A stretch of 64,000 nt of DNA from a virus (lineage: Duplodnaviria > Heunggongvirae > Uroviricota > Caudoviricetes). The notes below the pieces were generated by a model, which was not told the origin of the DNA, did no database searches, and was given only the letters and a program-made list of their open reading frames with translations. Position 1 is the stretch's first letter. Each line of letters begins with the position of its first letter. The translations under genes and the position numbers were made by a program. Below are positions 2,755 to 42,445 of this stretch, piece after piece. The stretch is from the IMG/VR virus record IMGVR_UViG_2974563859_000001, one strand, 5' to 3'.

Positions 2755-2900
2755 TTAGTATATATCTGCTTGATTATATTCTTCAAAATTATCACATTCT
2801 TCACATTGTATTACAAGTAATGAACCAAATTCATCATCGTCTACTATAAAACTAATATTGTTTGATCCACATTCATCGCATCTAATAGTAAAACTCATTT
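2755..2900 (-). CDS. small zinc-ribbon protein (47 aa; CxxC...CxxC)
   Basis: Hand translation: MSFTIRCDECGSNNISFIVDDDEFGSLLVIQCEECDNFEEYNQADIY. Below the 60-aa cutoff of the ORF track. Confidence 0.4.
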
Positions 2901-3045
2901 AAATCACTCCATTTTTTCTTTTATTTTATTAACTTATTTATAATATATTCTTTAATCTTTTTTTATTTTTAGAGAATTAATTACAATAAAACATAATTAT
3001 AATAAAATAAACCCCTCAATAAAAGCAGAACAATATTATTTAATT

Positions 3046-3078
3046 AAACCAAGGATATCATTATTTGATATCCTTGGT
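3046..3078. terminator. inverted repeat / hairpin downstream of the 3083..3769 gene
   Basis: aaccaaggatatca-ttatt-tgatatccttggtt. Confidence 0.4.
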
Positions 3079-3082
3079 TATT

Positions 3083-3769
3083 TTATTCTTCATCTTCAGT
3101 AAATTCTACTACATCATAAATTTTTCCATTTTCATCTTTTGCAATGTATTCCCCATTTTCTTCTGTAATCTCTATTTGCAGATCTGGTATTTCAGCATCT
3201 TCTATAATATTATAGTCGCCATCCAGACAATAGATATTTTTCTCCATATCTACTACATATTGATAGTCATTTATTTTTTCCTCTATTACTGTCTCTTCCT
3301 TTTCAGAATTGCTTTCATTTTGTTCTTCTTTCAATCTTGCTTCTAATAATGCATCTACTTCTTCATCATTTTTCTGTGATCCAGAAATATCTTCAGATTC
3401 TTGTTTATTTATAATTTCACTAAATTTTTTATCTTTTTTATTATTAAGAATATAATCATGAACACCAGCAACAATTTCTCTAATATCAGAGTTATCGCCA
3501 CCCTCTTGATTTCTTTGATTTTTAAGTGCAATATCAGCTTCAGTTTTCTTAGCATTTACGATTTGCTGAATAATAGATATCTTACCAGTTTTAAGTGAAA
3601 TTAAATTAGAGGTTTGTTTTTCTATAAATGTAAGAGTTCCATTACTGCCACTATTTTTAACTTTATCATAATGCTCTTTTGTTTCATCATATAATTCATC
3701 GATTTTTTCTAATTCATTCTGGAGAATACTTAATTCTTTAGAAATATCGATATTAATATTATCAGCCAT
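3083..3769 (-). CDS. hypothetical acidic protein
   Basis: 228-aa ORF, no recognisable domain. Confidence 0.55.
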   Translation of the reverse strand: MADNINIDISKELSILQNELEKIDELYDETKEHYDKVKNSGSNGTLTFIEKQTSNLISLKTGKISIIQQIVNAKKTEADIALKNQRNQEGGDNSDIREIVAGVHDYILNNKKDKKFSEIINKQESEDISGSQKNDEEVDALLEARLKEEQNESNSEKEETVIEEKINDYQYVVDMEKNIYCLDGDYNIIEDAEIPDLQIEITEENGEYIAKDENGKIYDVVEFTEDEE

Positions 3770-5251: not shown

Positions 5252-5413
5252 TTATTCTCTAGTTAGAGAATAAATTGCTTGTATTGCTTCATTCCCAATT
5301 TGACGAGAGTTTCGTCCCATTTGGTCTAACATATTCTTCTTTTCCCATATTAATCGTTCTGCTTCTTCATTAGCTTCTTTACTAAATACTCCACGTAGAG
5401 ATACTGTATCACC
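5252..5413 (-). CDS. RNA polymerase beta-prime N-terminal gene, last exon (GDTVSLRGVFSKEANEEAERLIW...YSLTRE*)
   Basis: Aligns to E. coli beta-prime [22 protein letters not shown]...LGLYYMTR. It has no start codon. It lies directly downstream of a td-like intron 3' end (...gaagattttG|ggtgat). Confidence 0.6.
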   Translation of the reverse strand, partial: GDTVSLRGVFSKEANEEAERLIWEKKNMLDQMGRNSRQIGNEAIQAIYSLTRE

Positions 5414-7303
5414 CAAAATCTTCCAGTAGATTCGCTACATCTACTGCGTTCTCTTATGAACTGCTCTATATTACTATAGAGATGAGACTATATCTTCACA
5501 ATATAATTGTGCCCTCCGTTTCCATTTAAAGAGGAATTATAACCTTATTACGGAATACCTCTACCGCTTGGCTGTACTCTACTCCCTTCCTTCTAACTAG
5601 CGTTATCACAACGATCTGTTAGAGTGGTTTCGATAGTCGTTGAACCTTCATCTTTAAATGAATTAAAGATGCTTGGATGCTGATTGTCCATATAGGATTT
5701 TCCAGCAGTTAAAAGGGTTTTACTACGACAGTAGATTATTATCTTTTATAGGTAAATACTAAATTACCACAATCCCATATTCTTTTAAATCTAGTTTTAT
5801 CCATGATTTCAAATTCAGTACTATCATCACTATATAATTTTGGAAATTTCTTTTTGAGATTAGACTTTCTATAATTAAATCTATGGAATCGTTGAGTTTT
5901 TTCAACGTTAACATACCAATAGTTGGGTTTACTAATATGACTTAATTCAAATTTATTATTGATATAAACATTGCCATCTGACCAGCGTTTATCTGCATAG
6001 GTTATTAATTCTTTCCACTCATAATTTCTCTCGAAGTATTTGAGAAGTTTACTAAAAGCACCTATTACTCTATAGTCCATATCGGTAGCGAATCTTGATA
6101 GTTCAAAAATATTATCAGCACTATTTCTACCTAGGCTTTTTCTAAGTTTACTAAAAGTCATTACCGCTACAAGTTCATCGCCATCTTCTTTTGGAAGCCA
6201 TAAGCCTAATTTAATTGATGACAAATCTTTTCCCTGAATGTGATTTCTTTCTAGGAATTCATTTTTAAAATTGTTATCAATTACTTCTACATAACAATTT
6301 CTAGCGTATATTTTAGTAGAATTATTTAATTTTAGTAGGTGTTTTATTTTTTCTTTTACTATGAGAGGTTTGTTAACCCATTCGTCTTCAAAAATTTGAA
6401 TTAGTCTAATCCCTTTACTATTACATTTTTCTAATTTTTCTAAATGATAGTTTCTTTTCTTCCCCATTTGCTCTGAATGCCAATATAAACCATTAAATTC
6501 AAAAGCAATTTTTTTGGAAGGAATAAATATATCAATCTCTTTACCTTCAAGTAATTTCCTGTCATTACATATGACTTTATCTACAACTAATCCTTTAATA
6601 AAAGAAGATAGTTCTTTTTCCATTTTTGATGAACTTTTAAATGCACAATATGGACATCTATTTCCATTATCAAAGTTTTTAATTGTAACTTCATACTCCT
6701 TATTACAACTATGATGTAACAATCTAATCTTCGTTTTATTATTACGATATTCACCTAATAATGAATACTCATTATTTGTAACTAAGCTAATTTTTCTTTT
6801 AACCTCATCAGTAGTTAGTCTTCTTTTACCAGAACATTGAGGACATCTATTTTTCAAAGCATAATAAGGAGTAGTCTTCCATTCATAATTACAGTCATTA
6901 CATCTGAAAAGTATTTTGGTATCGATATTGATATATTTCTCAAGACTTATAAGTCTTCCATTAGTCTTTTCTTTTAATTCCTTCTTAAACTCATCATTGC
7001 TTTTTAATCTTGATTTACCTTTATTAATATCAGCGCACTGAGGACATCTTCTACCATTATGAAATACATCAGGTCTAACCTCATATATATTTCCACATAA
7101 TTCATGCCTTAATTTGATTTTAGTCTTATTGTTAATATATTCATTGGATAAAACTGTATAGGTATTGTTAGTTAGTAATTTAACTTCTTCTTTGAATTCG
7201 TCCAGTGTCTTTTTATGTGGCATACATTAATACCTCCAAATAATTAATAATTATTTGTTTATTTGACACTGTATTCCCTTAAAAAGAAATAATATTAATT
7301 TTT
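5414..7303 (-). mobile_element. group I intron (phage IA2 / td-like core) carrying homing endonuclease ORF 5739..7223
   Basis: Core blocks AACGACTATCG and GAAGATATAGTCTCA plus the shared 3' tail agagcagttcataagagaacgc...gtagcgaatct. IGS gtcgtagt pairs the exon end actacgaT with a U-G pair at the junction. The junction splits the catalytic motif: D-Y-D | G-D. Confidence 0.6.
5739..7223 (-). CDS. homing endonuclease: N-terminal repeated zinc-finger modules plus C-terminal Vsr/EDxHD-like (DUF559-type) nuclease domain
   Basis: Repeated Y..L.EY.N..TKI...H..C...Y...P..F..G.RCP.C modules. C-terminal IAFEFNGLYWHSE. Paralogous to 7576..8493 and 34288..36051. Confidence 0.65.
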   Translation of the reverse strand: MPHKKTLDEFKEEVKLLTNNTYTVLSNEYINNKTKIKLRHELCGNIYEVRPDVFHNGRRCPQCADINKGKSRLKSNDEFKKELKEKTNGRLISLEKYINIDTKILFRCNDCNYEWKTTPYYALKNRCPQCSGKRRLTTDEVKRKISLVTNNEYSLLGEYRNNKTKIRLLHHSCNKEYEVTIKNFDNGNRCPYCAFKSSSKMEKELSSFIKGLVVDKVICNDRKLLEGKEIDIFIPSKKIAFEFNGLYWHSEQMGKKRNYHLEKLEKCNSKGIRLIQIFEDEWVNKPLIVKEKIKHLLKLNNSTKIYARNCYVEVIDNNFKNEFLERNHIQGKDLSSIKLGLWLPKEDGDELVAVMTFSKLRKSLGRNSADNIFELSRFATDMDYRVIGAFSKLLKYFERNYEWKELITYADKRWSDGNVYINNKFELSHISKPNYWYVNVEKTQRFHRFNYRKSNLKKKFPKLYSDDSTEFEIMDKTRFKRIWDCGNLVFTYKR

Positions 7304-7489
7304 ATCGTAGTCTCCGCCTAAAGCCTTTAAATAACCATTATAAGGAATTACTGTATCAACAAAAAGTTCATCCTCTGCGGGATAGTCAGGGTATATAACA
7401 GGATAATCAGGTAAGTATCTATCTTCCAGCTTTTGAGGTCGTGTTTCCTTTGTTGAAAGAATTCTTATTTTACTTGGATAAATATTCTA
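7304..7489 (-). CDS. RNA polymerase beta-prime N-terminal gene, internal exon (...IPYNGYLKALGGDYD)
   Basis: No ATG/GTG/TTG in frame. Ends in the DYD of the universally conserved NADFDGD motif. The 5' boundary is approximate. Confidence 0.45.
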
Positions 7490-9032
7490 TAGTGATAGGT
7501 AAAGATTTGATTTTATCTCCTCTTTTTCCCCCACTTCACACCCTACGTGCGACTTTCATCGCATAAGGCGTTCCATCAATTTAATAAAAATTTTTTAATA
7601 AGAATTGGTATACTATCGATTGGTGTATCATATTTAATTCTAAGAATTGGTAAATTATATTTCTTACAAAAATCATTTTTAATATTATCATGTTTTTGTA
7701 TTAATTCTAATTTTTTAATACGGTCATTTTCATCGTTACCAAAGATAGGAAGAAAATGTTGTCTACCATCATATTCTATTATAGCATTAAATTCCTCTAC
7801 AAAAAAATCAAAAGGTAAGGGTTTTCTATCTTTACATTCTTTAAAAGTTTTTTGATAGGTATATTCTGTTCCCATATTATTTAAAATATTTTTTATTAAT
7901 AATTCCCCACTACTCATTTTACAGTTTTTACATGAAAATTTATTAGATGTAATATTTTTTAATGAAAATTTATTAATAGTATTACACTCTAAATGTATTA
8001 TTTCTAATGGAGTTACATTATTTATATACTCACCAATCACTTTATACTCATTAGGATTTATTTTGTCTAACTGTTCTTGAACATATTCTTTATTTTTCTT
8101 AATAAGTCCTGAACAGTTAGGACAACGTCTCCCTAGAGATGTAAAATTTCCTGCTTTGACTTCATAAATGAATTTACATTTATTATGACGCATTGTTACC
8201 TTAGAATGATAATTTTTATAATTAGACAAAACAGTATATTCATCTTTTACTAATTCCTTAACCTTATTGATAAATTTTTCTGTAGTTAACTTTTCTTTTG
8301 AATTACAATGAGGACATCCATAACCCTGTAATAAGTTACAAGGTCTTGCCTCAAATTCTTTATTACAAATTTCATGTAATATTAAAATTTTTGTTTTAGA
8401 ATTAATATATTCACCAATTCGTTTGTAACCTTTTAGTATTTGATTTAGTCTTAAATCAAATGAAGTATTATCCAATTTTCTCATTAAAATCACTCCACAT
8501 AACTATTTATTATTATGTTTTGTGATTGTTCGATTATTTTTATTAAACTGACTATGACCCTTCGCTCCAATGGAGTTACCCATCTTCATAACTACTATGG
8601 TCTGCTGACTTTCTATATAAGAGTATCAACTATAATTTCTCTTATATAGAATCTCTGACGTTCCGTAAATGATAGTATAGCTATAACTTAGATGCCTTCT
8701 GCCCTATATAAACTTCTATTGTACCACACTTTACAATCAGGTCGTTCACCAGTACCGTATTACTAAACCCTGAATTTATATAGTATAAAAAGGTTCGTGT
8801 TCCTCATCATATTATAGCACCGCCCACCCTATCTATTAGTATTATAGTACTACTAATATTCAGATGACTTCACCTAACTTCATACAAATATTTTATATAG
8901 TTTAAAATAGATGCATGTAGGAGTATTAGCGACAAGTCTTCAATGAAAATGGTCATATCTTTTACTTGTTCTCATTTACAGTTTAGATTATAAAATCTAC
9001 TCCATTTCACATTAAATGCTTATAGGAGAACG
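7490..9032 (-). other. intervening sequence (putative intron of a different class) containing homing endonuclease ORF 7576..8493
   Basis: The beta-prime frame is broken by a stop at 9033-9035 and resumes at about 7489 without a start codon. The 540-nt segment at 8494-9032 is GC-richer and hairpin-rich. It lacks the td-like core blocks. Confidence 0.3.
7576..8493 (-). CDS. homing endonuclease paralog (zinc-finger modules + EDxHD/Vsr-like, IIEYDGRQH)
   Basis: Same architecture as 5739..7223. Confidence 0.6.
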   Translation of the reverse strand: MILMRKLDNTSFDLRLNQILKGYKRIGEYINSKTKILILHEICNKEFEARPCNLLQGYGCPHCNSKEKLTTEKFINKVKELVKDEYTVLSNYKNYHSKVTMRHNKCKFIYEVKAGNFTSLGRRCPNCSGLIKKNKEYVQEQLDKINPNEYKVIGEYINNVTPLEIIHLECNTINKFSLKNITSNKFSCKNCKMSSGELLIKNILNNMGTEYTYQKTFKECKDRKPLPFDFFVEEFNAIIEYDGRQHFLPIFGNDENDRIKKLELIQKHDNIKNDFCKKYNLPILRIKYDTPIDSIPILIKKFLLN

Positions 9033-10205
9033 TCACATACGATACTGCTCTATTGGATACCTTGTTACATATACATGTTTATCTTTGGTAATATCAACTG
9101 CCGCAATGAATAGAATATCAGTTAATGTAAAGTTACGCCCTAGTTCTTCTCTATATAATGGAATAGGAATTTCATTCCCCTTATCATCTTTAATCATTAA
9201 ACTATTAAAACGACTTTCAATAGACTTAATGTATAATGAGATCATCTTTTTTACTGCTTCTTCAGAGAACTGCTCTCTTATATTACTGATAGTTATCTCT
9301 TTTCCATTATGCTTAAATTTACTAAGTTCTGATTCACGTTCAAGAATATAATCTTGGATATATTTAAGAAAGAATGGATAAAATTCTACCACTAATTGTG
9401 ATAGGGGAATACCAGTCCATCCAAATCTAATAGGGTTATCCTTCCAGCTATTTGACTTAAATCGTGGTGCTGAGATTACACTACGAGTTGCATAATCAAC
9501 AGATTTACCTAAAGAGTTTTGATGGAACATACCATTTTTACCAGCTAAAGAGGATGTAAAATAGTCATAGATATCATATAAAAGAGTCTGAATAGATGAT
9601 TCTGTTATTACTCCCATAAAATCATAATCTTCACCCTTAGAAATTGATTGGCTATACCTAATTAATTTAGCATATTTGTCATTCACTTCATCAACAGCTT
9701 TAATCGTATCATTAGAAGATTTTGAGGGATTATAATCTCTATAAAATGCCGGAATCACTAAATATTTGTCAATAAATATATCATCCTTACCAAGTTTATT
9801 TAATAATGTAAGATAACTTGTTCTTCTATCAGTTCCAGTATTACTAAATTTTAATTGGTCATAAATAGTATAAAAATAGGTAACTCCAGTTTTACCATTA
9901 TCTTTATCTTCAACTAACCTACCGCCCTCAACTTTAAAATATTTTTTTCCAGATAGACAATCTGCAATTTTTCGATCCATAGAGGTTAGAAGCTTATAAA
10001 TTACTGGATGGAGAAATTTTCTCTTTAAGTCTATATAACCAAAAATTATTTTTCTTTCTTTACTTCCCGGATAACCAAAAATACTAGTTGAAAATAATCC
10101 ATCTTCAGTTGGTATATTTCCCATATTAAAGTAAACCGGATTTGTTACTTCTTTACATGCATGAGAAGTAATAAATTTATCTATATTTAATGTATCTATT
10201 TTCAT
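9033..10205 (-). CDS. RNA polymerase beta-prime N-terminal gene, first exon
   Basis: NSLGKSVDYATRSVISAPRF...GIP matches beta-prime NLLGKRVDYSGRSVIVVGP...QCGLP. The frame ends ...VYVTRYPIEQY, matching NRAPTLH. The 3' end is approximate. Confidence 0.65.
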   Translation of the reverse strand: MKIDTLNIDKFITSHACKEVTNPVYFNMGNIPTEDGLFSTSIFGYPGSKERKIIFGYIDLKRKFLHPVIYKLLTSMDRKIADCLSGKKYFKVEGGRLVEDKDNGKTGVTYFYTIYDQLKFSNTGTDRRTSYLTLLNKLGKDDIFIDKYLVIPAFYRDYNPSKSSNDTIKAVDEVNDKYAKLIRYSQSISKGEDYDFMGVITESSIQTLLYDIYDYFTSSLAGKNGMFHQNSLGKSVDYATRSVISAPRFKSNSWKDNPIRFGWTGIPLSQLVVEFYPFFLKYIQDYILERESELSKFKHNGKEITISNIREQFSEEAVKKMISLYIKSIESRFNSLMIKDDKGNEIPIPLYREELGRNFTLTDILFIAAVDITKDKHVYVTRYPIEQYRM

Positions 10206-34275: not shown

Positions 34276-34318
34276 AAAGGATAGAGACTAAATATCTCTA
34301 TCCTTTATTTTTTTTTTT
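34276..34318. terminator. bidirectional terminator
   Basis: aaaggatagagac-taaat-atctctatccttt followed by a T11 run. Confidence 0.6.
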
Positions 34319-36051
34319 GTATACTCAAAGACTAAATTTCCACAATCCCAAATTCTATCATAACCAGCTTCTCTCATAATTTGAATTTCTGTTTTATCAT
34401 TACTATAAATTTCTGGAAATAATTCTTTTAATCTTTGTTTTCTATAGTTGTATCTATGTGAAAGACTCAATTTATTTTTATTAAAATACCAATAATTTGG
34501 CTGAGAGTTATGCATAAAGTGAAAGCTATTTTTATGATATACATTTCCTTCTGACCATCTTAAATCAGCATATGTTATGATTTTATTCCAATCATAATTC
34601 TTTTTAAAATAACTGAATAATTTTCCAAAACTACCTATTACATTATAGTCTCTTTCTGTAGCAAATCTACTTAATTCATAGTCATATTTATTCCCTTTTT
34701 GCCCTAAGCTAACTCTAGGTTTACAGAATGTCATTACTGCTACTAACTCATCACCCTCATTCCTTGGATACCATAGTCCCAGTTTAATAGTAGAGTTATC
34801 AGATCCTTGAATATGATTTTTATCTAAAAAATCTCTTTTCACATTATTCTGAATTTCTTCTATATAACATTTTCTAGCATATATTTTTTCTCCATTATTT
34901 AAACCTAAAATATGTTTTATCTTTCCCTTTATAAGTTCTTTATTATCAATCCACTCATTCTCAAATAAATGAATTAATCTTATACCCTTTTCATTACATT
35001 TTTTCAATTTATTTAAATGGTAGTTTCTATCTTTTCCTTGAGATTCACCATGCCAATATAAACCGTTATATTCAATTGCTATTTTCTTTGAAGGTATATA
35101 AATATCCAGTTCTAAACCTTCAAGTATTTTTCTGTCTGATAGAATTACATTAGTGCTATTGGGGAGAATTTGTTTAATATAATCATATAATTCAATCTCA
35201 TCTTTTGAATTATGTTTCTTTAGTTGACATCTAGGACAATCTCTTTTAACTTTTTTACCTCTTGAATTACCATGTAAAATATCGACCGGTCTAACCTCCC
35301 AAGAATAGCCACATGAATGCTCAATAACTATTGGAGTTTTATTATTAATATATCTACTCTTAATTGTATAATCATTACTATTAAATATTCTATAAAAATC
35401 TTCTTTAAAACCATTAGATCCTTTATTTTTTGGATTTTTATTACATATATTACACCTTTTTCTTTTTAGGAAATTAGTTGGTGTAATAAAGAAATTATGA
35501 GAATCACTAGTATTGTGTCTCATCTCAATTTTATCTTGAGAGCTAATATATTCTCCTAATACAGTATATTCATCTCCTACTAAATCATACACTTCTTTAA
35601 TAAACATTTCAGTAGTCTTTGTCTTTTTCCTTTTTATTAGTTTCTTAGTACAATCAGGACATCTTGAACCCTTACTGAGAAAGTCATTAGGTCTTTTTTT
35701 AAACTCCTTATTACAGATGTTATGTCTAAGTAATACTAGTTTAGAACTATTAATATATTCTCCTAATACAGTATATTCATCTCCTACTAAATCATACACT
35801 TCTTTAATAAACATTTCAGTAGTCTTATTTTTTCTTTTAGATATTCTCTCTGATTTATGTAAAGGACATCTATTACCTGCATTTAAAAAGCCATTTGGTG
35901 AGACATAGTATTCATGACTGCACTTTTCATGTTTCATTTTTATTTTATTATTAGTTCCAGTATATTCTCCTAATACAGTATATTCATCTCCTACTAAATC
36001 ATACACTTCTTTAATAAACATTTCAGTAGTCTTTTTAGGCAAAACAATCAT
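34288..36051 (-). CDS. free-standing homing endonuclease paralog (three zinc-finger modules + EDxHD/Vsr-like nuclease)
   Basis: Three near-identical modules: KTTEMFIKEVYDLVGDEYTVLGEY...CP.C. C-terminal IAIEYNGLYWHGE. Confidence 0.65.
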   Translation of the reverse strand: MIVLPKKTTEMFIKEVYDLVGDEYTVLGEYTGTNNKIKMKHEKCSHEYYVSPNGFLNAGNRCPLHKSERISKRKNKTTEMFIKEVYDLVGDEYTVLGEYINSSKLVLLRHNICNKEFKKRPNDFLSKGSRCPDCTKKLIKRKKTKTTEMFIKEVYDLVGDEYTVLGEYISSQDKIEMRHNTSDSHNFFITPTNFLKRKRCNICNKNPKNKGSNGFKEDFYRIFNSNDYTIKSRYINNKTPIVIEHSCGYSWEVRPVDILHGNSRGKKVKRDCPRCQLKKHNSKDEIELYDYIKQILPNSTNVILSDRKILEGLELDIYIPSKKIAIEYNGLYWHGESQGKDRNYHLNKLKKCNEKGIRLIHLFENEWIDNKELIKGKIKHILGLNNGEKIYARKCYIEEIQNNVKRDFLDKNHIQGSDNSTIKLGLWYPRNEGDELVAVMTFCKPRVSLGQKGNKYDYELSRFATERDYNVIGSFGKLFSYFKKNYDWNKIITYADLRWSEGNVYHKNSFHFMHNSQPNYWYFNKNKLSLSHRYNYRKQRLKELFPEIYSNDKTEIQIMREAGYDRIWDCGNLVFEYTKKKIKDRDI

Positions 36052-36120: not shown

Positions 36121-37251
36121 TTATTCTGAATATATTTTACCAATTTCTCTCTTAAGATGAACTAAAGCTTTATTTAAATACAATGCATTGTAAATATCAA
36201 CGGTCATGCGTGAAACGATACTTAATGGACTCATAATGGCTTCAATATTCTCATCTGGATCATTCTCACTAAAAGGCTCTTGATCTTTAGGAATAACATC
36301 AGATACAATTGTTTTAAGTGCTGTATAATACGTAATCTTATCTCCAATACCAAGTTCATCATCATACTCAATATAAATCTCAATGAGTAGTCCATCTACC
36401 TCAGTACCTTTAATTTTCTCACCTGATTGCTTTTGAATAGGTTTAAGATTAACAGAAGTCAGATCATTAGTAACAGACTTAATCTTATCTTCTTTCTTCT
36501 TACTATCTTTAATATAGTTCTTCAGAATCTTTTGTACTGAAGGAGAAAACTCACTGATATCTTTATTGTAGTACATTACAACATCTACAATCTTACCAGT
36601 ATATTTAGAACTTACTTTGTTCTTAGATAACTCATTAATAGTCTCATTAAAGTCATCTCCTAGTTTATCTAAGAGTTGGTTGAGTGATTTATCTTCAAAA
36701 GAGTTTTCAAAGATAATCAGTGGATCACCAGTTTTAACCATATCGCCTTTCTTAACAATAAAGTCAATGTTTGAGTTAACTCCAAGAGCAAGTTCTTTCT
36801 TCATAGTAATCTTAGTAGATAGGTCTTGAGATAAGCTTTCTGTGATAATACTACTATCTTCATATGTGTAATCTGCGCTTGCTAGTGCTACTTTACAAAG
36901 CTTCCCTGTAGTATACGTGATATCATCTTTCTTATCGCCAAGGAAATAACTTGGATTCTTCGCTAGGATATCATCTTTTTTGAATTTCTCTCCTACTTTG
37001 ATAATGAGTTCTTTACGATTGGAAATATAGAAACCACCATTACTGTTCTTACTCATATGCTCGGAGAGATCAATGACGTCTTTCTTACCATCATTATAAC
37101 GAACGACAGCTAACTCATGTTCTTCATCTATGGACTCTAGAACTCCATCTTTTTTTGCTCTAAACACAAAGTCGTCACTTAGAATGTAAGCGACAGTCTT
37201 CTCTACACCACTACCAAATAGAGGTTTAGATTGCTTTGTGGTAGGAATGAT
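36121..37251 (-). CDS. RNA polymerase beta N-terminal gene, exon 5 (IIPTTKQSKPLFGSG...PSRM...)
   Basis: Aligns to E. coli beta AVPTLRADKPLVGTG...GDKMAGRHGNKGV...GVPSRMN. The frame is open upstream of the GTG that the ORF track used as a start. Confidence 0.65.
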   Translation of the reverse strand: MIPTTKQSKPLFGSGVEKTVAYILSDDFVFRAKKDGVLESIDEEHELAVVRYNDGKKDVIDLSEHMSKNSNGGFYISNRKELIIKVGEKFKKDDILAKNPSYFLGDKKDDITYTTGKLCKVALASADYTYEDSSIITESLSQDLSTKITMKKELALGVNSNIDFIVKKGDMVKTGDPLIIFENSFEDKSLNQLLDKLGDDFNETINELSKNKVSSKYTGKIVDVVMYYNKDISEFSPSVQKILKNYIKDSKKKEDKIKSVTNDLTSVNLKPIQKQSGEKIKGTEVDGLLIEIYIEYDDELGIGDKITYYTALKTIVSDVIPKDQEPFSENDPDENIEAIMSPLSIVSRMTVDIYNALYLNKALVHLKREIGKIYSE

Positions 37252-37611
37252 CGTTAACTTCCATTAGATTCGCTACGTCTAATGCGTTCTCTTATGAACT
37301 GCTCTATATTTCTATAGAGACGAGACTATATCACTATCCTTATCTATTAAGGATAACCCCCATTTCCATTTAAGGGATTCTCACCCACTCCAATCGCTTG
37401 AGCCGTACTCCTATTGCGGAATTTCACCGCTACTCACAATCCTAAGATTGCTTTCGGATAGTCGTTGAACCTTCATTGTTATTTATAACAATGCTTGGAT
37501 GCTGATTGTCCATATATCCTTTAGATTGTTACACTTTGGTACTAAAGGCTTTAGGATTTTCCAGCAGTTAAAGGGTTTTGCTAGCAATATTACTACTACT
37601 AGGCACGAATC
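37252..37611 (-). mobile_element. group I intron (td-like, no ORF) in the beta gene
   Basis: ctttaactgctgg, caacgactatcc, gatatagtctcg and the tail ...gcgaatctaatggaagttaacG. Confidence 0.55.
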
Positions 37612-37788
37612 ATGCTTTTGCTGCGTTGTTTGCATTCCAACGCGCGGTGGGTCGGCATGACGAGCAGTAAAGGAGTTTAATAACTCTGCCGGACCATAGA
37701 TATTTGTCGTATTATTTTTTGTATTAGGATTGGTGTCTAAGAATCCTCGTGTGTTTTTGAATGCTGGATCAAAAGTTAACTGTCTAAC
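37612..37788 (-). CDS. RNA polymerase beta gene, exon 4 (VRQLTFDPAFKNTRGFLDT...FTARHADPPRVGMQTTQQKH)
   Basis: GC-rich island. GFLDT matches GFLET. ARHADPPRVGMQTTQQ matches EHDDANRALMGANMQRQ. Confidence 0.55.
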
Positions 37789-38837
37789 CCATTACCTTCA
37801 TATAGGTTCGCTACACCTATACCGTTCTCTTATGAACTGCTCTATGTTACCATAGAGATGAGACTATATCTTTATCTAGTCAAAAAAAAAGAAAGGAGAT
37901 GACTAGATATCTCCCATTTCCATTTAAGGGATTCTCACCCACTCCAATCGCTTGAGCCGTACTCCTATTGTGTGTTAACCACTAAAGGATAGTCGTTGAA
38001 CGTTACTCTCGTTATAATTAAAAATAATTTATAAAACCGTTTTTCTCAGCAATTTCTTTTCTAAAAGTAATTGCTAGTTCTTTAGCTTTTTCAAAACCAT
38101 ATTTATTAACTGCAAATGTTTTAATAAATTTTTTATGATTAACACGGATTTCAGATTCCCATCTATTTTTCTTTTTAGAATATCTTATTCCTTTAATTCC
38201 AGAAGTATTATCGTTTCTTAGTGATGTATTTCTATTATTCATCATTTGAGAAACCTCACGCAAATTACTTTTTCTATTATTTAAACTATTTCTATCTATA
38301 TGATCAATTACATTATTATTATCTTTAATATCCATTAGGTATCTATGAAGCTTTCCACCTGAATTACTTGAAATATAAAATGAATTATTTCTTTTAGACC
38401 AGATAGCTCTCCAAACATGCTTATTTATTTTATCAATATCTTCAATATCAATTTGAGATTTTACGATACCATATGTTTTTGAAAAAGTAACTAATAATGC
38501 ATGATCATCTAATACTTCAATAAAATTATATGCTCTTTTTCCTTCTTTTAATGTTTTCATAGCTATACGCTCACTATAATCTCCATATAAAACTTCTGAA
38601 TAATGTGCAAGGGAATTTGATTTCTTTTCTTTATTATAGAAACTTACTCTCCATAATTTTTGTTCTTTTAGATATATTATTTTATTTTTTTCCATAATAG
38701 TAGCTCTCCTTTTTAACTTACTACTATTATAATATATATTTAACGAGAGTCTTCGATACGGATTGTCCTATTATTAGGAGTTTCCCGTAGTTAGAGAGAT
38801 TTTATCATTATATATCACTATATAAGGGGGCAGTTTA
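37789..38837 (-). mobile_element. group I intron with HNH-AP2 homing endonuclease (38018..38695) inserted in a stem-loop
   Basis: Stem ctctcgtt/aacgagag flanks the ORF. The td-like 3' core lies at 37789-38010. Confidence 0.5.
38018..38695 (-). CDS. HNH homing endonuclease with C-terminal AP2 DNA-binding domain
   Basis: IDHIDRNSLNNRKSNLREVS (HNH) and GIRYSKKKNRWESEIRVNHKK (AP2). RBS aaggagagc. Promoter-like motif on the minus strand at 38728-38741. Confidence 0.7.
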   Translation of the reverse strand: MEKNKIIYLKEQKLWRVSFYNKEKKSNSLAHYSEVLYGDYSERIAMKTLKEGKRAYNFIEVLDDHALLVTFSKTYGIVKSQIDIEDIDKINKHVWRAIWSKRNNSFYISSNSGGKLHRYLMDIKDNNNVIDHIDRNSLNNRKSNLREVSQMMNNRNTSLRNDNTSGIKGIRYSKKKNRWESEIRVNHKKFIKTFAVNKYGFEKAKELAITFRKEIAEKNGFINYF

Positions 38838-38852
38838 ATTCACCCCAACTTT
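38838..38852 (-). CDS. RNA polymerase beta gene, proposed 15-nt micro-exon (KVGVN)
   Basis: Lies between a td-like intron 3' end (...ggaagataatG) and the next intron, which starts taa after an exon T. It restores the conserved (I/V)GL(I/V)N segment. Confidence 0.35.
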
Positions 38853-39187
38853 CATTATCTTCCACTAGATTCGCTACATCTAATGCGTTCTCTTATGAAC
38901 TGCTTCATGTTACCATGAAGATGAGACTATATCATCATCCTATTAGGATGCCTCCCATTTCCAACTCCAATCGCTTGAGTTGTACTCTACTCCCTTCCTT
39001 CTAACTAGCGTTATCACAACGATCTGTTAGAGTGGTTTCGATAGTCGTTGAACCTTACTCTAATGAGTCTTGGATGCTGATTGTCCTTAAAGGATTTTCC
39101 AGCAGTTAAAGAGGTTTACTTATAATATTTCTATTATAAGGGACTATTATAAATCTTGTCTGGGAATTCAAGAATTATAATAATTCA
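38853..39187 (-). mobile_element. group I intron (td-like, no ORF)
   Basis: Complete core: ctttaactgctgg, caacgactatcg, gatatagtctca and the tail gtagcgaatctagtgg. Confidence 0.5.
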
Positions 39188-39265
39188 ATCCGAGTCGGGT
39201 GTTGACATTGCCATGATTCCACGCATACTAGGGTCATAAGCCCGAATATCAGTTGTATAAGCATC
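39188..39265 (-). CDS. RNA polymerase beta gene, proposed 78-nt micro-exon (DAYTTDIRAYDPSMRGIMAMSTPDSD)
   Basis: STPDS matches the universal ETPEG motif. Flanked by a td-like 3' end (...gaaggaaaacG) and a 5' exon-T|tga junction. Confidence 0.45.
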
Positions 39266-39649
39266 CGTTTTCCTTCATATAGGTTCGCTACACCTATACC
39301 GTTCCTTAGAACTGCTCTAAGTTTCCCTAGAGACGAGACTATATCATCACTTAAAAGTGCCTCCCATTTCCAGCCTCAATCGCTTAGACTGTACTCTACT
39401 CCCTTCCACTAACTAGCATTATTGTAATGATCTGTTAGAGTGGTTTCGATAGTCGTTGAACCTTTACCTTATTACAAATAATTTGTAACTTAGGTACTTG
39501 GTTGCTTATGATTACCCAATCCTTTAAATTTTTACCATACCTGAATTGTTATATTCAGCCATCTATTATGTTTCCATATAGATTTGGTATTAAAGGCTCT
39601 AAGGGTTTTCCAGCAGTTAAAGAGGTTTTAATTGGACTAAAACACTTTA
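39266..39649 (-). mobile_element. group I intron (td-like, no ORF)
   Basis: Begins taaagtgttttaGTCCAATtaaaacctctttaactgctgg. IGS gtccaa pairs the exon end ttggaT. Confidence 0.55.
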
Positions 39650-42445
39650 ATCCAAGTTCCTTCCTGAAAGCCCCTTGTAAGTAGCCGCACCACCCTTTTC
39701 AATTTCCAAAGAAGGGTTAAGGACACTATATTCATCGACAGTAGGTGAATTCATTAATGTCTTTAATAGAATATCCTGTGGAACAGACATCTTAATAGGA
39801 TTACCAGCTTTCAGTGTATCCTTATACGTTTTAAATGAATCTGCCAAGATTTTATACAAGTAGGCGTTTACTTGCTCAGTACCACGGATTCGATATGAAT
39901 TCATATCATTCAGTGGACTATAGCTCATATCTTCCAATAAGGTATTCGCATACAACAATATGTCATAGATATTCTCAGGTAATTCTAACTGTTTCAGTAC
40001 ATCTAATGTGATAGGATCAACCATTAGAGATAGAGTATTATGGAGACCTTTACCCATATTTCTGCTACCAAACATCTCATAGAAAGTTTCAATATAAGGA
40101 TCTTTAGAGTTCATTTCTTCAAATGTATACTCTTCAGTAGCCATAGTACTTAGACCACTTAATAATAAGGAATTTCTCAATAAAGAATTATTATAATATA
40201 GGTATCCATCTTTAAAACGGATCTTATCATAGTCATCATCAATTGTAATTCTCTTATTCTTAGTATCAAAGCTATATTCAATATTATATCTTTCTAATAA
40301 ATCTTCTAATCCTAATTCATATCCAAGAAGAACCACTAAAGGAATCATTCTATTATTAATACGAACTCGGTTATATGCTAGAGACTTAGAATTACTTAAA
40401 GAAGATAATTTTTTATAAGCTTCCTCACTAAGTGAAGTAACAACAACTTTAATAATGAGTTCTGAAAGACTCATATCAGTATTTTCTTGTTTCTTATTAT
40501 TAATCAGATAAACTCTTTTACTTGAACGCTTAAGAGCAATAACATTTTCATTATCTTTTGTATGACCGATTGGTAAGAATTGTTTATCATCAATATTAAT
40601 CTTAGCAAGCTTAGCCATATTATCAAGATCACTTTTCAATAAATCTTCTACTTCTTTTTGACTGAACATAAGTTTATATTCATCATTCTCTAAGCTTAGA
40701 AGGAAGGAAGAGATTTCATTATATTCAAGAGTTGTTTCATATCCCTCATTAATTGTTAGAGCGTTACCTAGACGATAATTAAACTTCTTACCTGATACTT
40801 TAAATTCATTTAGATCCATACCAAAAAGCTTCTTAAGTTTCTCAGTTTTATGAGATAGCTTAGAACCAAAGCGCATGACAAAAAACTTATTGTAGTTAGT
40901 AGTAATCTGAACTTCATCAGGTTTTGTTTTTACAATGGGTAAAGATAGAATTTGCTTAAGAATTAATTTTTTACCACCATTAATATTCATAAACCTACCA
41001 TCTCTGATAATAGGATAATCAAATTTAACAGTATGCTTTACATTACGATCATCTTGGAAAGTAACAGTGTAAGTTAATTTCTTTGATAAATCAGTAGATG
41101 TGTCTTCTGTTTTAATATCACTTACAAATAATTTAACATCGCTATCTCCATTAAATGATGAAAGAACTGCAACTAAGTCTTTTTTCATCTGTTTCTCAAA
41201 GTAGCTCATATCAAAATCTTTAAGATTTGAATATCTAGTTTCTTCTTGAATAACATTTGTATTGGTAATTGGCTTTCGGTCAATACTTGTTGATTTAAAA
41301 TCATCAATAATATCTTGAATATTAATATCATCAAGAGTAACTTGTTTTTGTTTTTCTTTTAGGCGTTCAAGAGTCTTTCTCTGTTTAATTTCATCTCCAC
41401 CAGTAGACTGAAGCTCTTTAAGAGTTGAAACATCAGCTTTTAATTCCTTACTGTTATTTAAGATATCAATGATTTCATCTTCACTTTTATCAAGAATATC
41501 TTCATCACTTGAATCAATAGCTTTTTCAATATCATCACCAATCTTATCAGTAACTTCAATTGCACTACTGGATAATTTTGTATTTCCATCAATTTGGAAA
41601 TTACTTAATAATTTTTCTTTAACTTTTTCAGATTTTTCTTTTACTAATGCATCTCTCTTGTTTTCTGTTTCTTGAGTTGCATCTTCTTTACCTAAAGGTT
41701 TTTCATCATTATTAGTCCTCTGATGATTTGCTGTTTTAATAAGAATATTTAATGCATTAAGGAATCTATTTGCAAGAAGATTAGAAAGTTCATCATTAAT
41801 ATTGAATTTAATAAATGTATTATTAACTGTAGTATAAAAAATAAAGTCTACATTCTTAAGCTCTTTCTTCTGTTCCTCTGTTAACAACTTTCTTTTAATT
41901 GCCATATAGATATAAGCAAAAGGTGTTCTTGCATTATTTAAGTCAAAGAATGATGGATCAAGAACATTGTCAGGAACAGGAATTGCTACTGCTTTATTCT
42001 CATATGATGCGCCCTCTTTAATTTTAGATATAAGAAACTCAAAATACATTTCAACTCGTTTTCTTCCACGAACTTTAATCTCTACTTCATTCTCAAGATG
42101 CTCATTTGTAATATCATAGATCAAGTTAAGATCATTATAATTAGTTAAAGCACGTTTAGTATAAATAATACTGGAGCATTTTGCTTTTACCTCATCATAA
42201 TATTTCTTTTGATCTACAATAATTCTTTTATTCTTTTGAACAGTATTGAATGCTCTTGGAATATATACTCCTCTAAAAAAAGAAGGACTGAATATATTAG
42301 AATTAATAAAATCAAATATTTCACTTTGATTATTTCCTGAAAAGAAAATCAAATTTGAATTACGGTCATTTTTCCTTTTTTTAATGGATGAAAGTTTTAT
42401 ATTAGAGTACACTCTCAATTCCTTGAGATTATCAAGATAAAACAA
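39650..42445 (-). CDS. RNA polymerase beta N-terminal gene, exon 1 (TTG start)
   Basis: Ends ...NPSLEIEKGGAATYKGLSGRNLD, matching [20 protein letters not shown]. RBS aaggaagtggg. Confidence 0.6.

What the first reader, a model, noticed from the sequence alone, without database searches (positions are those of the whole stretch)
5252..7489. Intron splits beta-prime between the Asp codons of the catalytic NADFDGD motif; the homing endonuclease sits in the P1 loop
The exon at 7304-7489 ends ...LGGDYD. The exon at 5252-5413 begins GDTVSLRGVFSKEANEEAERL, matching [21 protein letters not shown]. The intron's guide sequence gtcgtagt lies about 20 nt before the aaaacccttttaactgctgg block. It is perfectly complementary to the exon end actacgaT with a U-G at the junction. 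This guide sequence lies after the 1.5-kb endonuclease ORF (5739..7223). The ORF therefore sits between the 5' splice site and the guide sequence, that is, inside the P1 loop. The motif reads DYDGD (Phe to Tyr), and the beta-prime N-terminal fragment lacks the N-terminal zinc finger. Both traits are typical of divergent phage RNA polymerases.
Basis: partly seen in the sequence, partly recalled or inferred. Interest (0 to 1): 0.8.

Follow-up and report, generated by a model that had tools for sequence, protein, structure and literature searches.

The report
Known mobile intron in phage polymerase
This is a real self-splicing group I intron, carrying its own homing-endonuclease gene, that interrupts the catalytic Asp motif of the virion RNA polymerase beta-prime gene of Bacillus phage PBS1/AR9; the split gene and its splice junctions were already in the public record, and the only addition here is evidence that the endonuclease gene sits in the loop of the first intron helix (P1).

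Summary
The window is Bacillus phage PBS1, 99.6% identical to AR9. On the minus strand, exon 7488..7304 ends ...GGDYD and exon 5413..5252 begins GDTVSL. The 1890-nt sequence between them (7303..5414) is a group I intron (Rfam 84 bits). An intronless allele in phage Goe21 reads GAT|GGT across the junction. The spliced 503-aa product is identical to the AR9 g145 protein deposited in 2016.

The guide GUCGUAGU (5729..5722) pairs 8/8 with the exon end and lies directly 5' of P3. The 494-aa endonuclease ORF therefore lies wholly in the P1 loop. Related introns in Staphylococcus and Yersinia jumbo phages put their guides in the same register, with compensatory changes, and their ORFs in the same place.

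Corrections:
- The exon starts at 7488, not 7489, because a group II intron (9040..7489) precedes it.
- The guide abuts the P3 block rather than lying 20 nt before it.
- The gene's C-terminus seems to lie about 100-135 residues before the cyanobacterial/plastid rpoC1/rpoC2 split.

AR9 dRNA-seq places a late promoter for the endonuclease inside the P1 loop. Verdict: real, correctly read, already known, of modest interest.

The parts
9041..10205 (-). Exon 1 of the virion RNA polymerase beta-prime N-terminal subunit gene (AR9 g145 homologue). It ends ...CAGTATC, one base into a codon.
   Evidence: ORF list. Collinear with intronless Goe21. AR9 annotation is a join of 3. Weak Pfam RNA_pol_Rpb1_1 match. 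PDB hits to AR9 non-virion beta-prime 7S00/7S01.
7489..9040 (-). Group II intron (5' GUAUG...; D1-D4 at 8986..8813; D5/D6 at 7573..7489) carrying the 305-aa endonuclease ORF 8493..7576.
   Evidence: Rfam RF02004 80.7 bits and RF00029 55.2 bits. Boundaries from the Goe21 alignment. Published in PMC12350094.
7304..7488 (-). Exon 2 (185 nt), ending ...GGC GGA GAC TAC GAT (GGDYD). The last 8 nt (7311..7304, ACUACGAU) form the 5' strand of P1.
   Evidence: Diverges from Goe21 at 30 of 185 nt with only 2 amino-acid changes.
5414..7303 (-). Group I intron, 1890 nt. The first base is A7303 and the terminal G (omega-G) is 5414.
   Evidence: Junctions fixed unambiguously by the intronless allele GAT|GGT. 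Rfam RF00028 core match. The spliced product equals AMS01229.1.
7248..7259 (-). Late-type promoter motif AACA-N6-TA inside the P1 loop. The transcription start is A7248, 25 nt upstream of the endonuclease ATG.
   Evidence: The AR9 dRNA-seq table lists a primary TSS for g146 at AR9 120207 with upstream sequence ...caaataaacaaataattA, which is identical in the window (PMC5312081 supplement file 4).
7233..7237 (-). Shine-Dalgarno GGAGG, 9 nt upstream of the endonuclease start codon.
   Evidence: Read directly from the sequence.
5739..7223 (-). Homing-endonuclease ORF, 494 aa, with three parts. The N-terminus holds three CapR/DUF4379-like zinc ribbons. The middle is an EDxHD/Vsr-like nuclease domain (about residues 200-295). 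The C-terminal ~199 aa is the 'Hef-like' domain, with Mom-like/GNAT-like similarity.
   Evidence: Pfam CapR 2.7e-13 and DUF4379 3.4e-10. PDB 3R3P 'mobile intron protein' 6e-6 over residues 222-294. PHROG 559 at 2.8e-154; C-terminal domain hits phrog_1384 at 1.9e-8. 99.8% identical in AR9 and 98.4% in Internexus.
5730..5733 (-). P10 guide UACU, complementary (2 Watson-Crick and 2 G.U pairs) to the first four bases of exon 3, GGUG (5413..5410).
   Evidence: Read directly from the sequence. The corresponding UAUAUU in the Staphylococcus and Yersinia phage introns pairs with their 3' exon GAUAUG or GAUACA.
5722..5729 (-). Internal guide sequence GUCGUAGU, the 3' strand of P1. It lies 9 nt after the ORF stop codon (5741..5739) and is followed directly by AAAA and P3.
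   Evidence: Unique 8-bp match in the intron. Chance estimate. The P1 pairing appears in the minimum-energy fold of a mini-construct. Aligned in register with the guides of four other lineages. Covariation.
5414..5721 (-). Ribozyme core, hand-assigned on the Rfam alignment. P3 is CCCUUU/GGAGGG; P4 is UGCUGG/UCAGCA; P5 is minimal; P6/P6a is a 9-bp hairpin; P7 is GACUA/UAGUC. A 113-nt insertion lies between P7 and P3', in the P7.1/P7.2 position (subgroup IA-like). P8 is CACAAU/AUUGUG. P9 is CUCUAUA-GUAA-UAUAGAG. A further 8-bp hairpin follows at about 5449..5427. No P2 is present.
   Evidence: Rfam alignment. RNAalifold recovers P4, P5, P6a, P8, P9 and the last hairpin. AR9 carries two compensatory double changes, A-U to G-C in P9 and G-C to U-A in the last hairpin.
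5252..5413 (-). Exon 3 (GDTVSLRGVF...YSLTRE, then stop). It is annotated in PBS1 records as a separate 54-aa ORF starting at a TTG that is really the last three bases of the intron.

Best explanation
Position 7303..5414 (minus strand) is a mobile, self-splicing group I intron of the phage IA-like family. It is inserted in phase 0 between Asp450 and Gly451 of the Mg-binding DYDGD loop of the PBS1/AR9 virion RNA polymerase beta-prime N-terminal subunit.

Splicing. The late pre-mRNA runs through an upstream group II intron, a 185-nt middle exon and this intron. P1 forms over 1.57 kb, between the last 8 nt of the middle exon and the guide GUCGUAGU, which lies directly 5' of P3. There is no P2. The adjacent UACU aligns the 3' exon (P10). 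Guanosine-initiated splicing then joins GAT to GGT and restores DYDGD. The splicing chemistry itself is inferred from family membership.

The endonuclease. The whole P1 loop is occupied by a gene cassette with its own late promoter (TSS 7248), a GGAGG ribosome-binding site and a 494-aa ORF. The product is a Hef-like endonuclease with CapR-type zinc ribbons and an EDxHD/Vsr-type nuclease domain. The ORF stops 9 nt before the guide. The endonuclease is therefore made mainly from a transcript that starts inside the intron and lacks the 5' splice site.

Mobility (inferred). In mixed infections the enzyme cuts intronless alleles such as that of phage Goe21 near the DYDGD codons. Repair then copies the intron together with flanking exon sequence.
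For: - Identity of the locus: 100% PBS1, 99.6% AR9.
- Ribozyme: RF00028 at 84 bits, E 6.6e-20. Two compensatory double changes between PBS1 and AR9 in P9 and the last hairpin.
- Junctions: the intronless Goe21 allele reads GAT|GGT. The spliced product is collinear with it and identical to the deposited AR9 g145 protein. [quoted passage not shown]
- P1 and P10: a unique 8-bp guide, about 6e-4 by chance at that place. No GUYG guide exists in the 80 nt between the splice site and the ORF.
- Comparative support: the guide is in the same position and the ORF in the same place in Madawaska and phiR1-37. ORF-less mini versions with 10-13-nt P1 loops occur in MarsHill, PB50, Machias and AH12. P1/P10 covary.
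- Endonuclease.
- Its own promoter and late expression: AR9 dRNA-seq supplement.
- Mobility: presence/absence polymorphism among phages whose flanking exons are about 99% identical. Exon 2 differs at 30 of 185 nt, against 14 of 1165 and 1 of 162 in the other exons.
Against: - No splicing or cleavage experiment could be run here, and the primary AR9 genome paper (Lavysh 2016) could not be read. Experimental confirmation of this particular junction is therefore second-hand.
- A local 4-bp hairpin, CUAC-UGUC-GUAG (5734..5723), competes for the guide.
- A 1.57-kb P1 loop demands long-range pairing.
- Rfam's own alignment places its P1/P2 columns in the 3' end of the ORF, though with many non-canonical pairs.
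- Rfam does not detect the Madawaska core or the mini-introns at E <= 0.01, and scores phiR1-37 below gathering at 44 bits. The comparators rest partly on conserved blocks read by eye and on exon continuity.
- The guides in the pair-count alignment (A4) were extracted by me, which favours pairing. Their register was, however, reproduced by MAFFT.
Confidence: 0.9

Rival explanations
1. The guide is elsewhere. On this view CUAC-UGUC-GUAG (5734..5723) is a small P2 hairpin, as in the sister introns of this window that have a P2 just before AAAACCC. P1 would then form with a sequence inside or before the ORF, so the ORF would not be in the P1 loop.
For: The sister intron at 37621..37302 has the hairpin CUAG...CUAG in that position. 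The Rfam alignment puts P1/P2 columns upstream of 5735. Partial complements of the exon end exist inside the ORF (7 bp at 6587, 6 bp at 6709).
Against: The hairpin has only 4 bp and is not conserved: Madawaska, phiR1-37, MarsHill and PB50 have no hairpin there, yet each has a guide complementary to its own exon in that exact register. Rfam's P1 columns are mostly non-canonical in this hit. ORF-internal candidates are wobble-rich, lie far from the core, and would be in translated sequence. The ORF-less mini-introns show the basal design: a P1 hairpin, then P3, with no P2.
Confidence: 0.05
2. There is no splicing. On this view the three ORFs are separate polypeptides, or remnants, that assemble non-covalently, as the PBS1 GenBank records (390 aa plus 54 aa ORFs) would suggest.
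For: PBS1 and Internexus records annotate the pieces as separate genes. Jumbo-phage RNAP subunits are indeed split into several polypeptides (PMC7598289).
Against: Exon 2 has no start codon and begins inside a codon. The 'TTG start' of the 54-aa ORF is the intron's last three bases. The break would separate the second and third Asp of one Mg-binding loop. Both gaps are filled by significant ribozyme matches. An allele with about 99% identical flanks has no gaps. The AR9 depositors joined the exons exactly as derived here.
Confidence: 0.02
3. The intron splices but is no longer mobile. On this view the ORF is a passenger that has lost site-specific cleavage, or has acquired another role such as a maturase or a competition weapon without homing.
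For: No cleavage data exist for this enzyme. Its C-terminal domain resembles a Mom-like/GNAT fold of unknown role. A related enzyme sits free-standing next to an intact beta-prime gene in PALS_2. The PhiPA3 example shows that intron endonucleases can act as interference weapons (PMC11620839).
Against: The ORF is intact and 98.4-99.8% conserved in three phages. It has its own mapped promoter, with transcript levels rising late. Intron-plus and intron-minus alleles coexist among near-identical phages, and there is a divergent exon tract next to the intron.
Confidence: 0.15

Closest known systems
AR9 g145/g146 (GenBank KU878088, Lavysh et al. 2016) and Fig. [quoted passage not shown]
   Same: It is the same element. 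The sequence is 99.6% identical, the spliced protein is identical, the endonuclease is the same, and the same gene is described as invaded by a group I and a group II intron with homologous endonucleases.
   Different: The held texts do not state where in the ribozyme the ORF sits, do not name the guide sequence, and do not point out that the junction falls inside DxDGD. PBS1's own records do not join the exons.
PhiPA3 gp210 intron in the virion RNAP beta-subunit gene (Birkholz et al., Science 2024, PMC11620839)
   Same: A group I intron with an endonuclease gene in a jumbo-phage virion RNA polymerase gene, inserted next to conserved catalytic Asp codons. The endonuclease targets the intronless allele of a related phage.
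   Different: Different subunit (beta, not beta-prime). The enzyme is an HNH nickase, not an EDxHD/Vsr-Hef type. The host phage is a nucleus-forming chimallivirus. Function was shown experimentally there, not here.
Phage T4 td intron / I-TevI (own knowledge of the classical literature)
   Same: The ribozyme is subgroup IA with P7.1/P7.2-type extensions. The ORF is in a peripheral loop and is expressed from a late promoter inside the intron. The insertion is in a conserved part of an essential enzyme gene. The core shows sequence similarity to Twort/T4-type introns.
   Different: I-TevI sits in the P6 loop and is a GIY-YIG enzyme, and td has a P2. Here the ORF is in the P1 loop and P2 is absent. 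A sister intron in this same window does use the P6 loop (ORF 38695..38018).
Nuclear rDNA group I introns with endonuclease genes in P1 (myxomycete S1389 introns, PMC8395846)
   Same: A sense-orientation endonuclease gene inserted in P1, so that the 5' splice site and the guide are separated by the whole gene.
   Different: Those are eukaryotic nucleolar IC/IE-type introns in rRNA genes with His-Cys box enzymes. They have no internal bacterial-type promoter and no translation coupling.
I-Bth0305I, the EDxHD endonuclease of the recA intron of Bacillus phage 0305phi8-36 (PDB 3R3P)
   Same: The nuclease domain is homologous (E 6e-6 over residues 222-294). Both enzymes are encoded in group I introns of Bacillus phages.
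   Different: PBS1's enzyme has three CapR-like zinc ribbons at the N-terminus and an extra ~199-aa Hef/Mom-like C-terminal domain.

Membership tests
Group I intron (Rfam RF00028) | Covariance-model match above the curated gathering score | tested here: met
   84.0 bits against a gathering score of 50, E 6.6e-20, full model 1-253, at 5775..5464.
Group I intron (Rfam RF00028) | P1 helix between the 5' exon end and an internal guide, with a U.G wobble at the cleavage site | tested here: met
   ACUACGAU (7311..7304) pairs 8 of 8 with GUCGUAGU (5729..5722). The match is unique in the intron, has about a 6e-4 chance at that place, and covaries across five lineages.
Group I intron (Rfam RF00028) | Terminal guanosine (omega-G) at the 3' end, and a P7 guanosine-binding helix flanked by conserved J6/7 and J8/7 | tested here: met
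   The intron ends ...GAUUUUG|GGU (G5414). UUCAACGACUA and GAAGAUAUAGUC align to the model's J6/7-P7 and J8/7-P7'.
Group I intron (Rfam RF00028) | Precise excision restores the host reading frame, and an intronless allele exists | tested here: met
   Goe21 intronless gene. The product has 503 aa with no indel and is identical to AMS01229.1.
Group I intron (Rfam RF00028) | Guanosine-dependent self-splicing of the RNA | not testable with these tools
   There is only a second-hand statement that AR9 mature mRNA sequences were determined experimentally. The primary paper is not held.
Subgroup IA (T4 td / Twort-like) | Extra P7.1/P7.2 helices between P7 and P3', and a P2 helix | tested here: inconclusive
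   A 113-nt insertion lies exactly between P7 and P3' in the Rfam alignment, and there is blastn similarity to Twort and other phage introns. P2, however, is absent: the guide is followed by AAAA and then P3. No formal subgroup classifier was available.
EDxHD/Vsr-type (I-Bth0305I-like), Hef-like homing endonuclease | Sequence homology of the nuclease domain to a solved family member, plus auxiliary DNA-binding modules | tested here: met
   3R3P at E 6e-6. CapR 2.7e-13 and DUF4379 3.4e-10. PHROG 559 at 2.8e-154. Same family description as in PMC12350094.
EDxHD/Vsr-type (I-Bth0305I-like), Hef-like homing endonuclease | Site-specific cleavage of the intronless allele, and gene conversion | not testable with these tools
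   Indirect evidence only: presence/absence polymorphism and a 16% divergent exon tract next to the intron.
Endonuclease gene in the P1 loop (as in nuclear S1389 introns) | The whole ORF lies between the 5' splice site and the guide sequence | tested here: met
   5' splice site at 7304/7303, ORF 7223..5739, guide 5729..5722. The order is the same in Madawaska, where the guide overlaps the last codons, and in phiR1-37, where the guide lies 9 nt after the stop.
Multisubunit RNA polymerase beta-prime | DxDGD Mg-binding motif in the double-psi beta-barrel | tested here: met
   DYDGD at 448-452 exists only after splicing. It aligns with SGDYDGD of AR9 non-virion beta-prime (7S00/7S01) and with NADFDGD of plastid beta-prime.
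Multisubunit RNA polymerase beta-prime | N-terminal zinc finger (CxC...CxxC) | tested here: not met
Only C17 and C83 occur in the first 100 residues. The segment between IFG and the next conserved block is short and has no Cys.
Cyanobacterial/plastid rpoC1-rpoC2 split | The N-terminal subunit ends at the same position as gamma / plastid beta-prime | tested here: inconclusive
   Query residues 442-481 align to plastid beta-prime 483-522 of 680. Cyanobacterial gamma chains are 624-626 aa long with an offset about 16 smaller. The phage protein (503 aa) therefore seems to end about 100-135 residues earlier. A review says the sites coincide. A search with the C-terminal peptide was uninformative.

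The most novel reading that the evidence does not exclude
The arrangement may be a conserved regulatory design of one intron lineage that has colonised the DxDGD codons of virion RNA polymerase genes in Bacillus, Staphylococcus and Yersinia jumbo phages. In this design the endonuclease gene fills the P1 loop, carries its own late promoter downstream of the 5' splice site, and has a stop codon that abuts or overlaps the guide sequence. A terminating ribosome would mask the guide, so translation of the endonuclease and formation of P1 would be mutually exclusive on one RNA. The internal promoter would put endonuclease synthesis on transcripts that cannot splice. The lineage would also have retargeted by 3 nt (DxD|GD in PBS1, DxDG|D elsewhere) through changes in the guide.
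Probability: 0.3. Interest if true: 0.45.

Novelty: already known. Interest (0 to 1): 0.25.

Why it matters
The element illustrates a general rule: mobile introns settle in the most conserved codons of essential genes, where imprecise loss is lethal. Here the intron sits in the metal-binding loop of an RNA polymerase that the phage must package in its virion.

The intron, its endonuclease and the splice junctions are already in the public record for AR9 and in a 2025 paper. The practical value of this check is therefore limited to three points.
- The PBS1 records should join the three exons rather than list 390-aa and 54-aa fragments.
- The P1-loop placement of the endonuclease gene recurs in three phage groups. 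Together with the mapped internal promoter, this gives a tractable system for asking how endonuclease translation and splicing are kept apart.
- The natural intron-plus (PBS1, AR9, Internexus) and intron-minus (Goe21) phages, and the divergent exon tract between the two introns, offer a ready-made pair for homing and co-conversion experiments.

Tried and rejected
- A guide close to the 5' splice site. No GUYG exists in the 80 nt before the ORF, and the best local match is 3 bp. Rejected.
- Rfam's placement of P1/P2 inside the ORF's 3' end. Most of those pairs are flagged non-canonical. Rejected in favour of the 8-bp long-range P1.
- CUAC-UGUC-GUAG as a P2 hairpin. It is not conserved in relatives. 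Rejected.
- An A/U-rich extension of P1 (AUUAUUUCUUUU with AAAAGAUAAUAAU) that would close the 1.5-kb loop. It is absent from the minimum-energy fold of a mini-construct. The overall interaction gain (-11.2 kcal/mol against -5.4 +/- 2.5 for shuffles, reached by 6 of 300) is explained by P1 itself. Not claimed.
- The repeated 9-mer AAUCUACUG (before the guide and in the last hairpin) as a functional alternative pairing. AR9 changed the hairpin copy by compensatory changes without changing the other. Treated as coincidence.
- Rfam at gathering score on Madawaska, phiR1-37 and PB50 found nothing. At E <= 0.01 only phiR1-37 (44 bits) and the MarsHill group II intron appeared.
- The BpSp hit to the core turned out to be an intron in a different gene.
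- A PDB search with the C-terminal 76 residues, meant to fix the split site, was uninformative.
- The AR9 genome paper could not be opened by PMC id or DOI.
- Several loci fetched in parallel calls never reached the script machine, so some scans were done with the DNA search and by reading sequence.


Full report
IDENTITY OF THE LOCUS

The 5.3 kb around the finding is 100% identical to Bacillus phage PBS1 and 99.6% identical to AR9. [quoted passage not shown] It is annotated as a join of three pieces. Two endonuclease genes, g147 and g146, lie in the gaps.

Phage Goe21 belongs to the same genus and has the gene uninterrupted (1512 nt, 'rpoC1'). Phage Internexus has both intervening sequences, but the first is shorter.

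THE OBSERVATION

On the minus strand exon 2 ends ...GGC GGA GAC TAC GAT at 7304, and exon 3 starts GGT GAT ACA at 5413. The Goe21 allele reads ...GGAGATTATGAT GGTGATACA... This fixes both junctions without ambiguity: the base after GAT in PBS1 is A, and the base before GGT is G.

Joining 10205..9041, 7488..7304 and 5413..5252 gives 1512 nt. The product has 503 aa and differs from the Goe21 protein at three residues, with no gap. The same joins in AR9 give the identical protein. That exact sequence is the deposited AMS01229.1 / YP_009283049.1. The junction is phase 0, between D450 and G451 of D448-Y-D-G-D452.

Position 7489 is the last base of a group II intron that runs from 9040 to 7489 (Rfam D1-D4 80.7 bits, D5/D6 55.2 bits). 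That intron splits a codon as C|AG.

THE INTERVENING SEQUENCE IS A GROUP I INTRON

Rfam RF00028 matches 5775..5464 over the full model at 84 bits (gathering score 50, E 6.6e-20). The match includes the conserved J6/7-P7 (UUCAACGACUA) and J8/7-P7' (GAAGAUAUAGUC). A 113-nt insertion sits where subgroup IA introns carry P7.1/P7.2. The intron ends in G (5414).

The core resembles those of many phage introns: 310 phage records match it, including Twort. Five further group I introns lie in the same window.

Between PBS1 and AR9 the few substitutions in the 3' part include two compensatory double changes. One is A-U to G-C in P9, with a GUAA to GAAA loop change. The other is G-C to U-A in the last hairpin. 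These argue that the RNA structure is under selection.

WHERE THE GUIDE IS, AND HENCE WHERE THE ORF IS

Scanning the whole intron for pairing with the exon end, with G opposite the final U, gives one 8-bp solution. It is GUCGUAGU at 5729..5722. The runners-up are 7 and 6 bp, wobble-rich, and lie inside the ORF or in the P7.1 region.

The degenerate pattern occurs 3 times in the window's 128,000 positions, against 2.4 expected. A hit in the ~30 nt before P3 therefore has a chance of about 6e-4.

The guide is followed directly by AAAA and by P3 (CCCUUU, pairing with GGAGGG), so there is no P2. The four bases before the guide (UACU) can pair with the first four of exon 3 (GGUG) as P10. A mini-construct lacking the ORF folds with this P1 in its minimum-energy structure.

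The ORF (7223..5739) lies wholly between the splice site (7304/7303) and the guide. The guide abuts the aaaaccc block rather than lying 20 nt before it.

COMPARATIVE TEST

A tblastn search with the spliced protein shows that other jumbo phages are interrupted at the same motif.
- Madawaska (Staphylococcus) and phiR1-37 (Yersinia) have ORF-containing introns at DFDG|D, 3 nt downstream of the PBS1 site.
- In Madawaska the guide GCCGUCA pairs with the exon UGACGGU and overlaps the last codons of the ORF. It is one of two plus-strand pattern matches in 3 kb, and the only one that is fully Watson-Crick.
- In phiR1-37 the guide GCCAUC pairs with GAUGGU, 9 nt after the stop codon. Its core scores 44 bits for RF00028.
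- MarsHill, PB50, Machias and AH12 have ORF-less introns of about 160 nt at the same site. Their P1 loops are 10-13 nt, they lack P2, and their guides are in the same position.

MAFFT aligns all five lineages column for column through [P10 guide][P1 guide][P3][P4]. On that register 84% of P1/P10 cells pair. Five pairs show changes on both sides, and 0 of 500 shuffles reach that number. Slid controls give 26-63% pairing.

Three caveats apply. I extracted the guide segments myself. Some lineages are related to each other. Rfam does not recognise the Madawaska core or the mini-introns. Even so, the alternative reading of the PBS1 sequence CUAC-UGUC-GUAG as a P2 hairpin is not supported by any relative.

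THE ENDONUCLEASE

The 494-aa protein has three parts.
- Three CapR/DUF4379-type zinc ribbons.
- A nuclease domain homologous to I-Bth0305I, the EDxHD/Vsr-type enzyme (3R3P, E 6e-6).
- A ~199-aa C-terminal domain typical of 'Hef-like' phage endonucleases (PHROG 559, 2.8e-154). This domain also hits a 'Mom-like DNA modification protein' family (1.9e-8) and, weakly, GNAT.

The protein is 31% identical over 244 residues to the ORF of the neighbouring group II intron. It is 24-27% identical to the Madawaska and phiR1-37 intron ORFs. It is 42.5% identical to a free-standing gene that lies 38 nt downstream of the intact beta-prime gene in Staphylococcus phage PALS_2, where no intron RNA is detected.

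EXPRESSION

The AR9 dRNA-seq supplement lists a primary transcription start for g146 at AR9 120207, 25 nt before the ATG. The upstream sequence is ...caaataaacaaataattA, and the window carries it unchanged. This places an AACA-N6-TA late promoter at 7259..7248, inside the P1 loop, followed by GGAGG at 7237..7233.

g145 and g147 have their own mapped starts, and all three genes are late. The endonuclease mRNA therefore starts downstream of the 5' splice site. It carries the guide, the core and exon 3, but cannot splice. The stop codon lies 9 nt before the guide, and in Madawaska it overlaps the guide. That a terminating ribosome would mask the guide is my inference and was not tested.

MOBILITY

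Intron-plus phages (PBS1, AR9, Internexus) and an intron-minus phage (Goe21) differ by about 1% in exon 1 (14 of 1165 nt) and exon 3 (1 of 162 nt). In the 185-nt exon between the two introns they differ by 16% (30 of 185 nt), with only two amino-acid changes. The differences run from +40 after the group II junction to 4 nt before the group I junction.

This is what co-conversion of flanking exon sequence from a more divergent donor would leave. It is indirect evidence only.

The two synonymous C's in GAC TAC of the intron-plus alleles make G-C pairs with the guide, where the Goe21 T's would make G.U pairs.

- DYDGD is confirmed, and the AR9 non-virion beta-prime shares it. The Staphylococcus and Yersinia homologues read DFDGD.
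- The zinc finger is absent.
- The end at YSLTRE is conserved: YSLTKE in PALS_2 and YMMTRD in phiR1-37.
- The single usable alignment puts that end about 135 residues before the end of plastid beta-prime, and about 100 before that of cyanobacterial gamma. A review says the split sites coincide. I leave this open.

WHAT IS KNOWN

- The three-exon join and the 'Hef-like homing endonuclease' have been in GenBank since 2016.
- Korn et al. cite AR9 introns in RNAP genes and experimentally determined mature mRNAs.
- NAR 2025 describes this gene in AR9 and PBS1 as invaded by a group I and a group II intron with homologous CapR + EDxHD/Vsr endonucleases.
- Endonuclease genes in P1 are documented in nuclear rDNA introns.
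- Intron insertion at catalytic residues of a jumbo-phage virion RNAP gene has been studied experimentally in PhiPA3. The rationale for such sites is textbook.
- I found no held text that states the P1-loop position, the guide, or the exact DxD|GD junction for this intron. Those details are a modest addition.

VERDICT

The element is a known mobile group I intron. Interest is low to moderate (0.25).

Noticed in passing
window 7489-9040 (-); L003 about 2772-3357: Exon 2 is bounded upstream by a group II intron (5' GUAUG; D1-D4 at 8986..8813; D5/D6 at 7573..7489). Its domain-IV ORF (8493..7576, 305 aa) is a CapR + Vsr-like endonuclease, not a reverse transcriptase, and it has its own mapped late TSS in AR9. 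Internexus carries the same intron without the ORF (about 586 nt against 1552 nt). That makes a natural pair with and without the endonuclease. The intron itself is published (PMC12350094).
   Followed up: partly
window 7304-7488 against L012 (Goe21): The exon between the two introns differs from the intronless allele at 30 of 185 nt, with only 2 amino-acid changes. Exon 1 differs at 14 of 1165 nt and exon 3 at 1 of 162 nt. The tract stops 4 nt before the group I site, and the first 39 nt after the group II site are identical. This looks like polar co-conversion from a divergent donor.
   Followed up: partly
L008 6020-6200 (PB50); L010 4520-4690 (Machias); L011 4700-4870 (AH12): The ORF-less mini group I introns at DFDG|D in these Staphylococcus phages have C, not U, as the last exon base, and A, not G, as the first guide base. 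A C.A pair thus replaces the near-universal U.G wobble at the cleavage site.
   Followed up: no
L011 4520-4720 (AH12): AH12 has an additional mini group I intron 15 nt upstream of the DFDG|D intron. This leaves a 15-nt micro-exon, GCTGACTTTGATGGC (ADFDG), between two introns.
   Followed up: no
L004 1933-5192 (PALS_2): In Staphylococcus phage PALS_2 the beta-prime N-terminal gene is intact (GADFDGD). The closest non-Bacillus relative of the PBS1 intron endonuclease (42.5% identity, 569 aa) sits free-standing 38 nt downstream, with no Rfam intron match nearby. This fits the idea that a free-standing endonuclease targeting this gene later moved into an intron.
   Followed up: partly
window 5742-6338 (-): The C-terminal 199 residues of the intron endonuclease (the 'Hef-like' part) match PHROG 1384 'Mom-like DNA modification protein' (1.9e-8) and, weakly, the Pfam GNAT family (0.081). 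The group II intron's endonuclease lacks this domain. Its role is unknown.
   Followed up: partly
window 36121-42445 (-), micro-exon 38842-38852: The virion RNAP beta-subunit gene (AR9 g189, a join of 6) holds at least four Rfam group I introns. An 11-nt exon, AAAGTTGGGGT, appears to lie between two of them. The peptide read across it (…TPDSDKVGVVRQLTFDP…) is collinear with uninterrupted homologues in Goe21, Listeria and Staphylococcus phages. One of these introns carries its HNH-AP2 ORF (38695..38018) in the P6 loop.
   Followed up: partly
window 34288-36051 (-): A 587-aa paralogue of the intron endonuclease (AR9 g188, 'Hef-like') lies free-standing just downstream of the beta-subunit gene. 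It has four N-terminal zinc-ribbon repeats, three of which begin with near-identical copies of KTTEMFIKEVYDLVGDEYTVLGEY.
   Followed up: no
L008 5650-5843 (PB50); L010 4150-4345; L011 4150-4345: PB50, Machias and AH12 have a mini group I intron (not a group II intron) in the Ile codon of YPIENF. This is 9 nt upstream of the site where PBS1/AR9 and MarsHill have their group II intron. The same short conserved stretch has therefore been colonised by both intron classes.
   Followed up: no
window 61156-61509 (+): A further group I intron on the plus strand (RF00028, 56 bits), in a gene I did not examine.
   Followed up: no
window 5252-5416 and 9033-10205 (-): PBS1 and Internexus GenBank records annotate the exons as separate proteins (390 aa ending ...YRM, read into the group II intron, and 54 aa from a TTG that is intron sequence). 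Exon 2 is not annotated at all. The records should carry the three-exon join used for AR9.
   Followed up: yes
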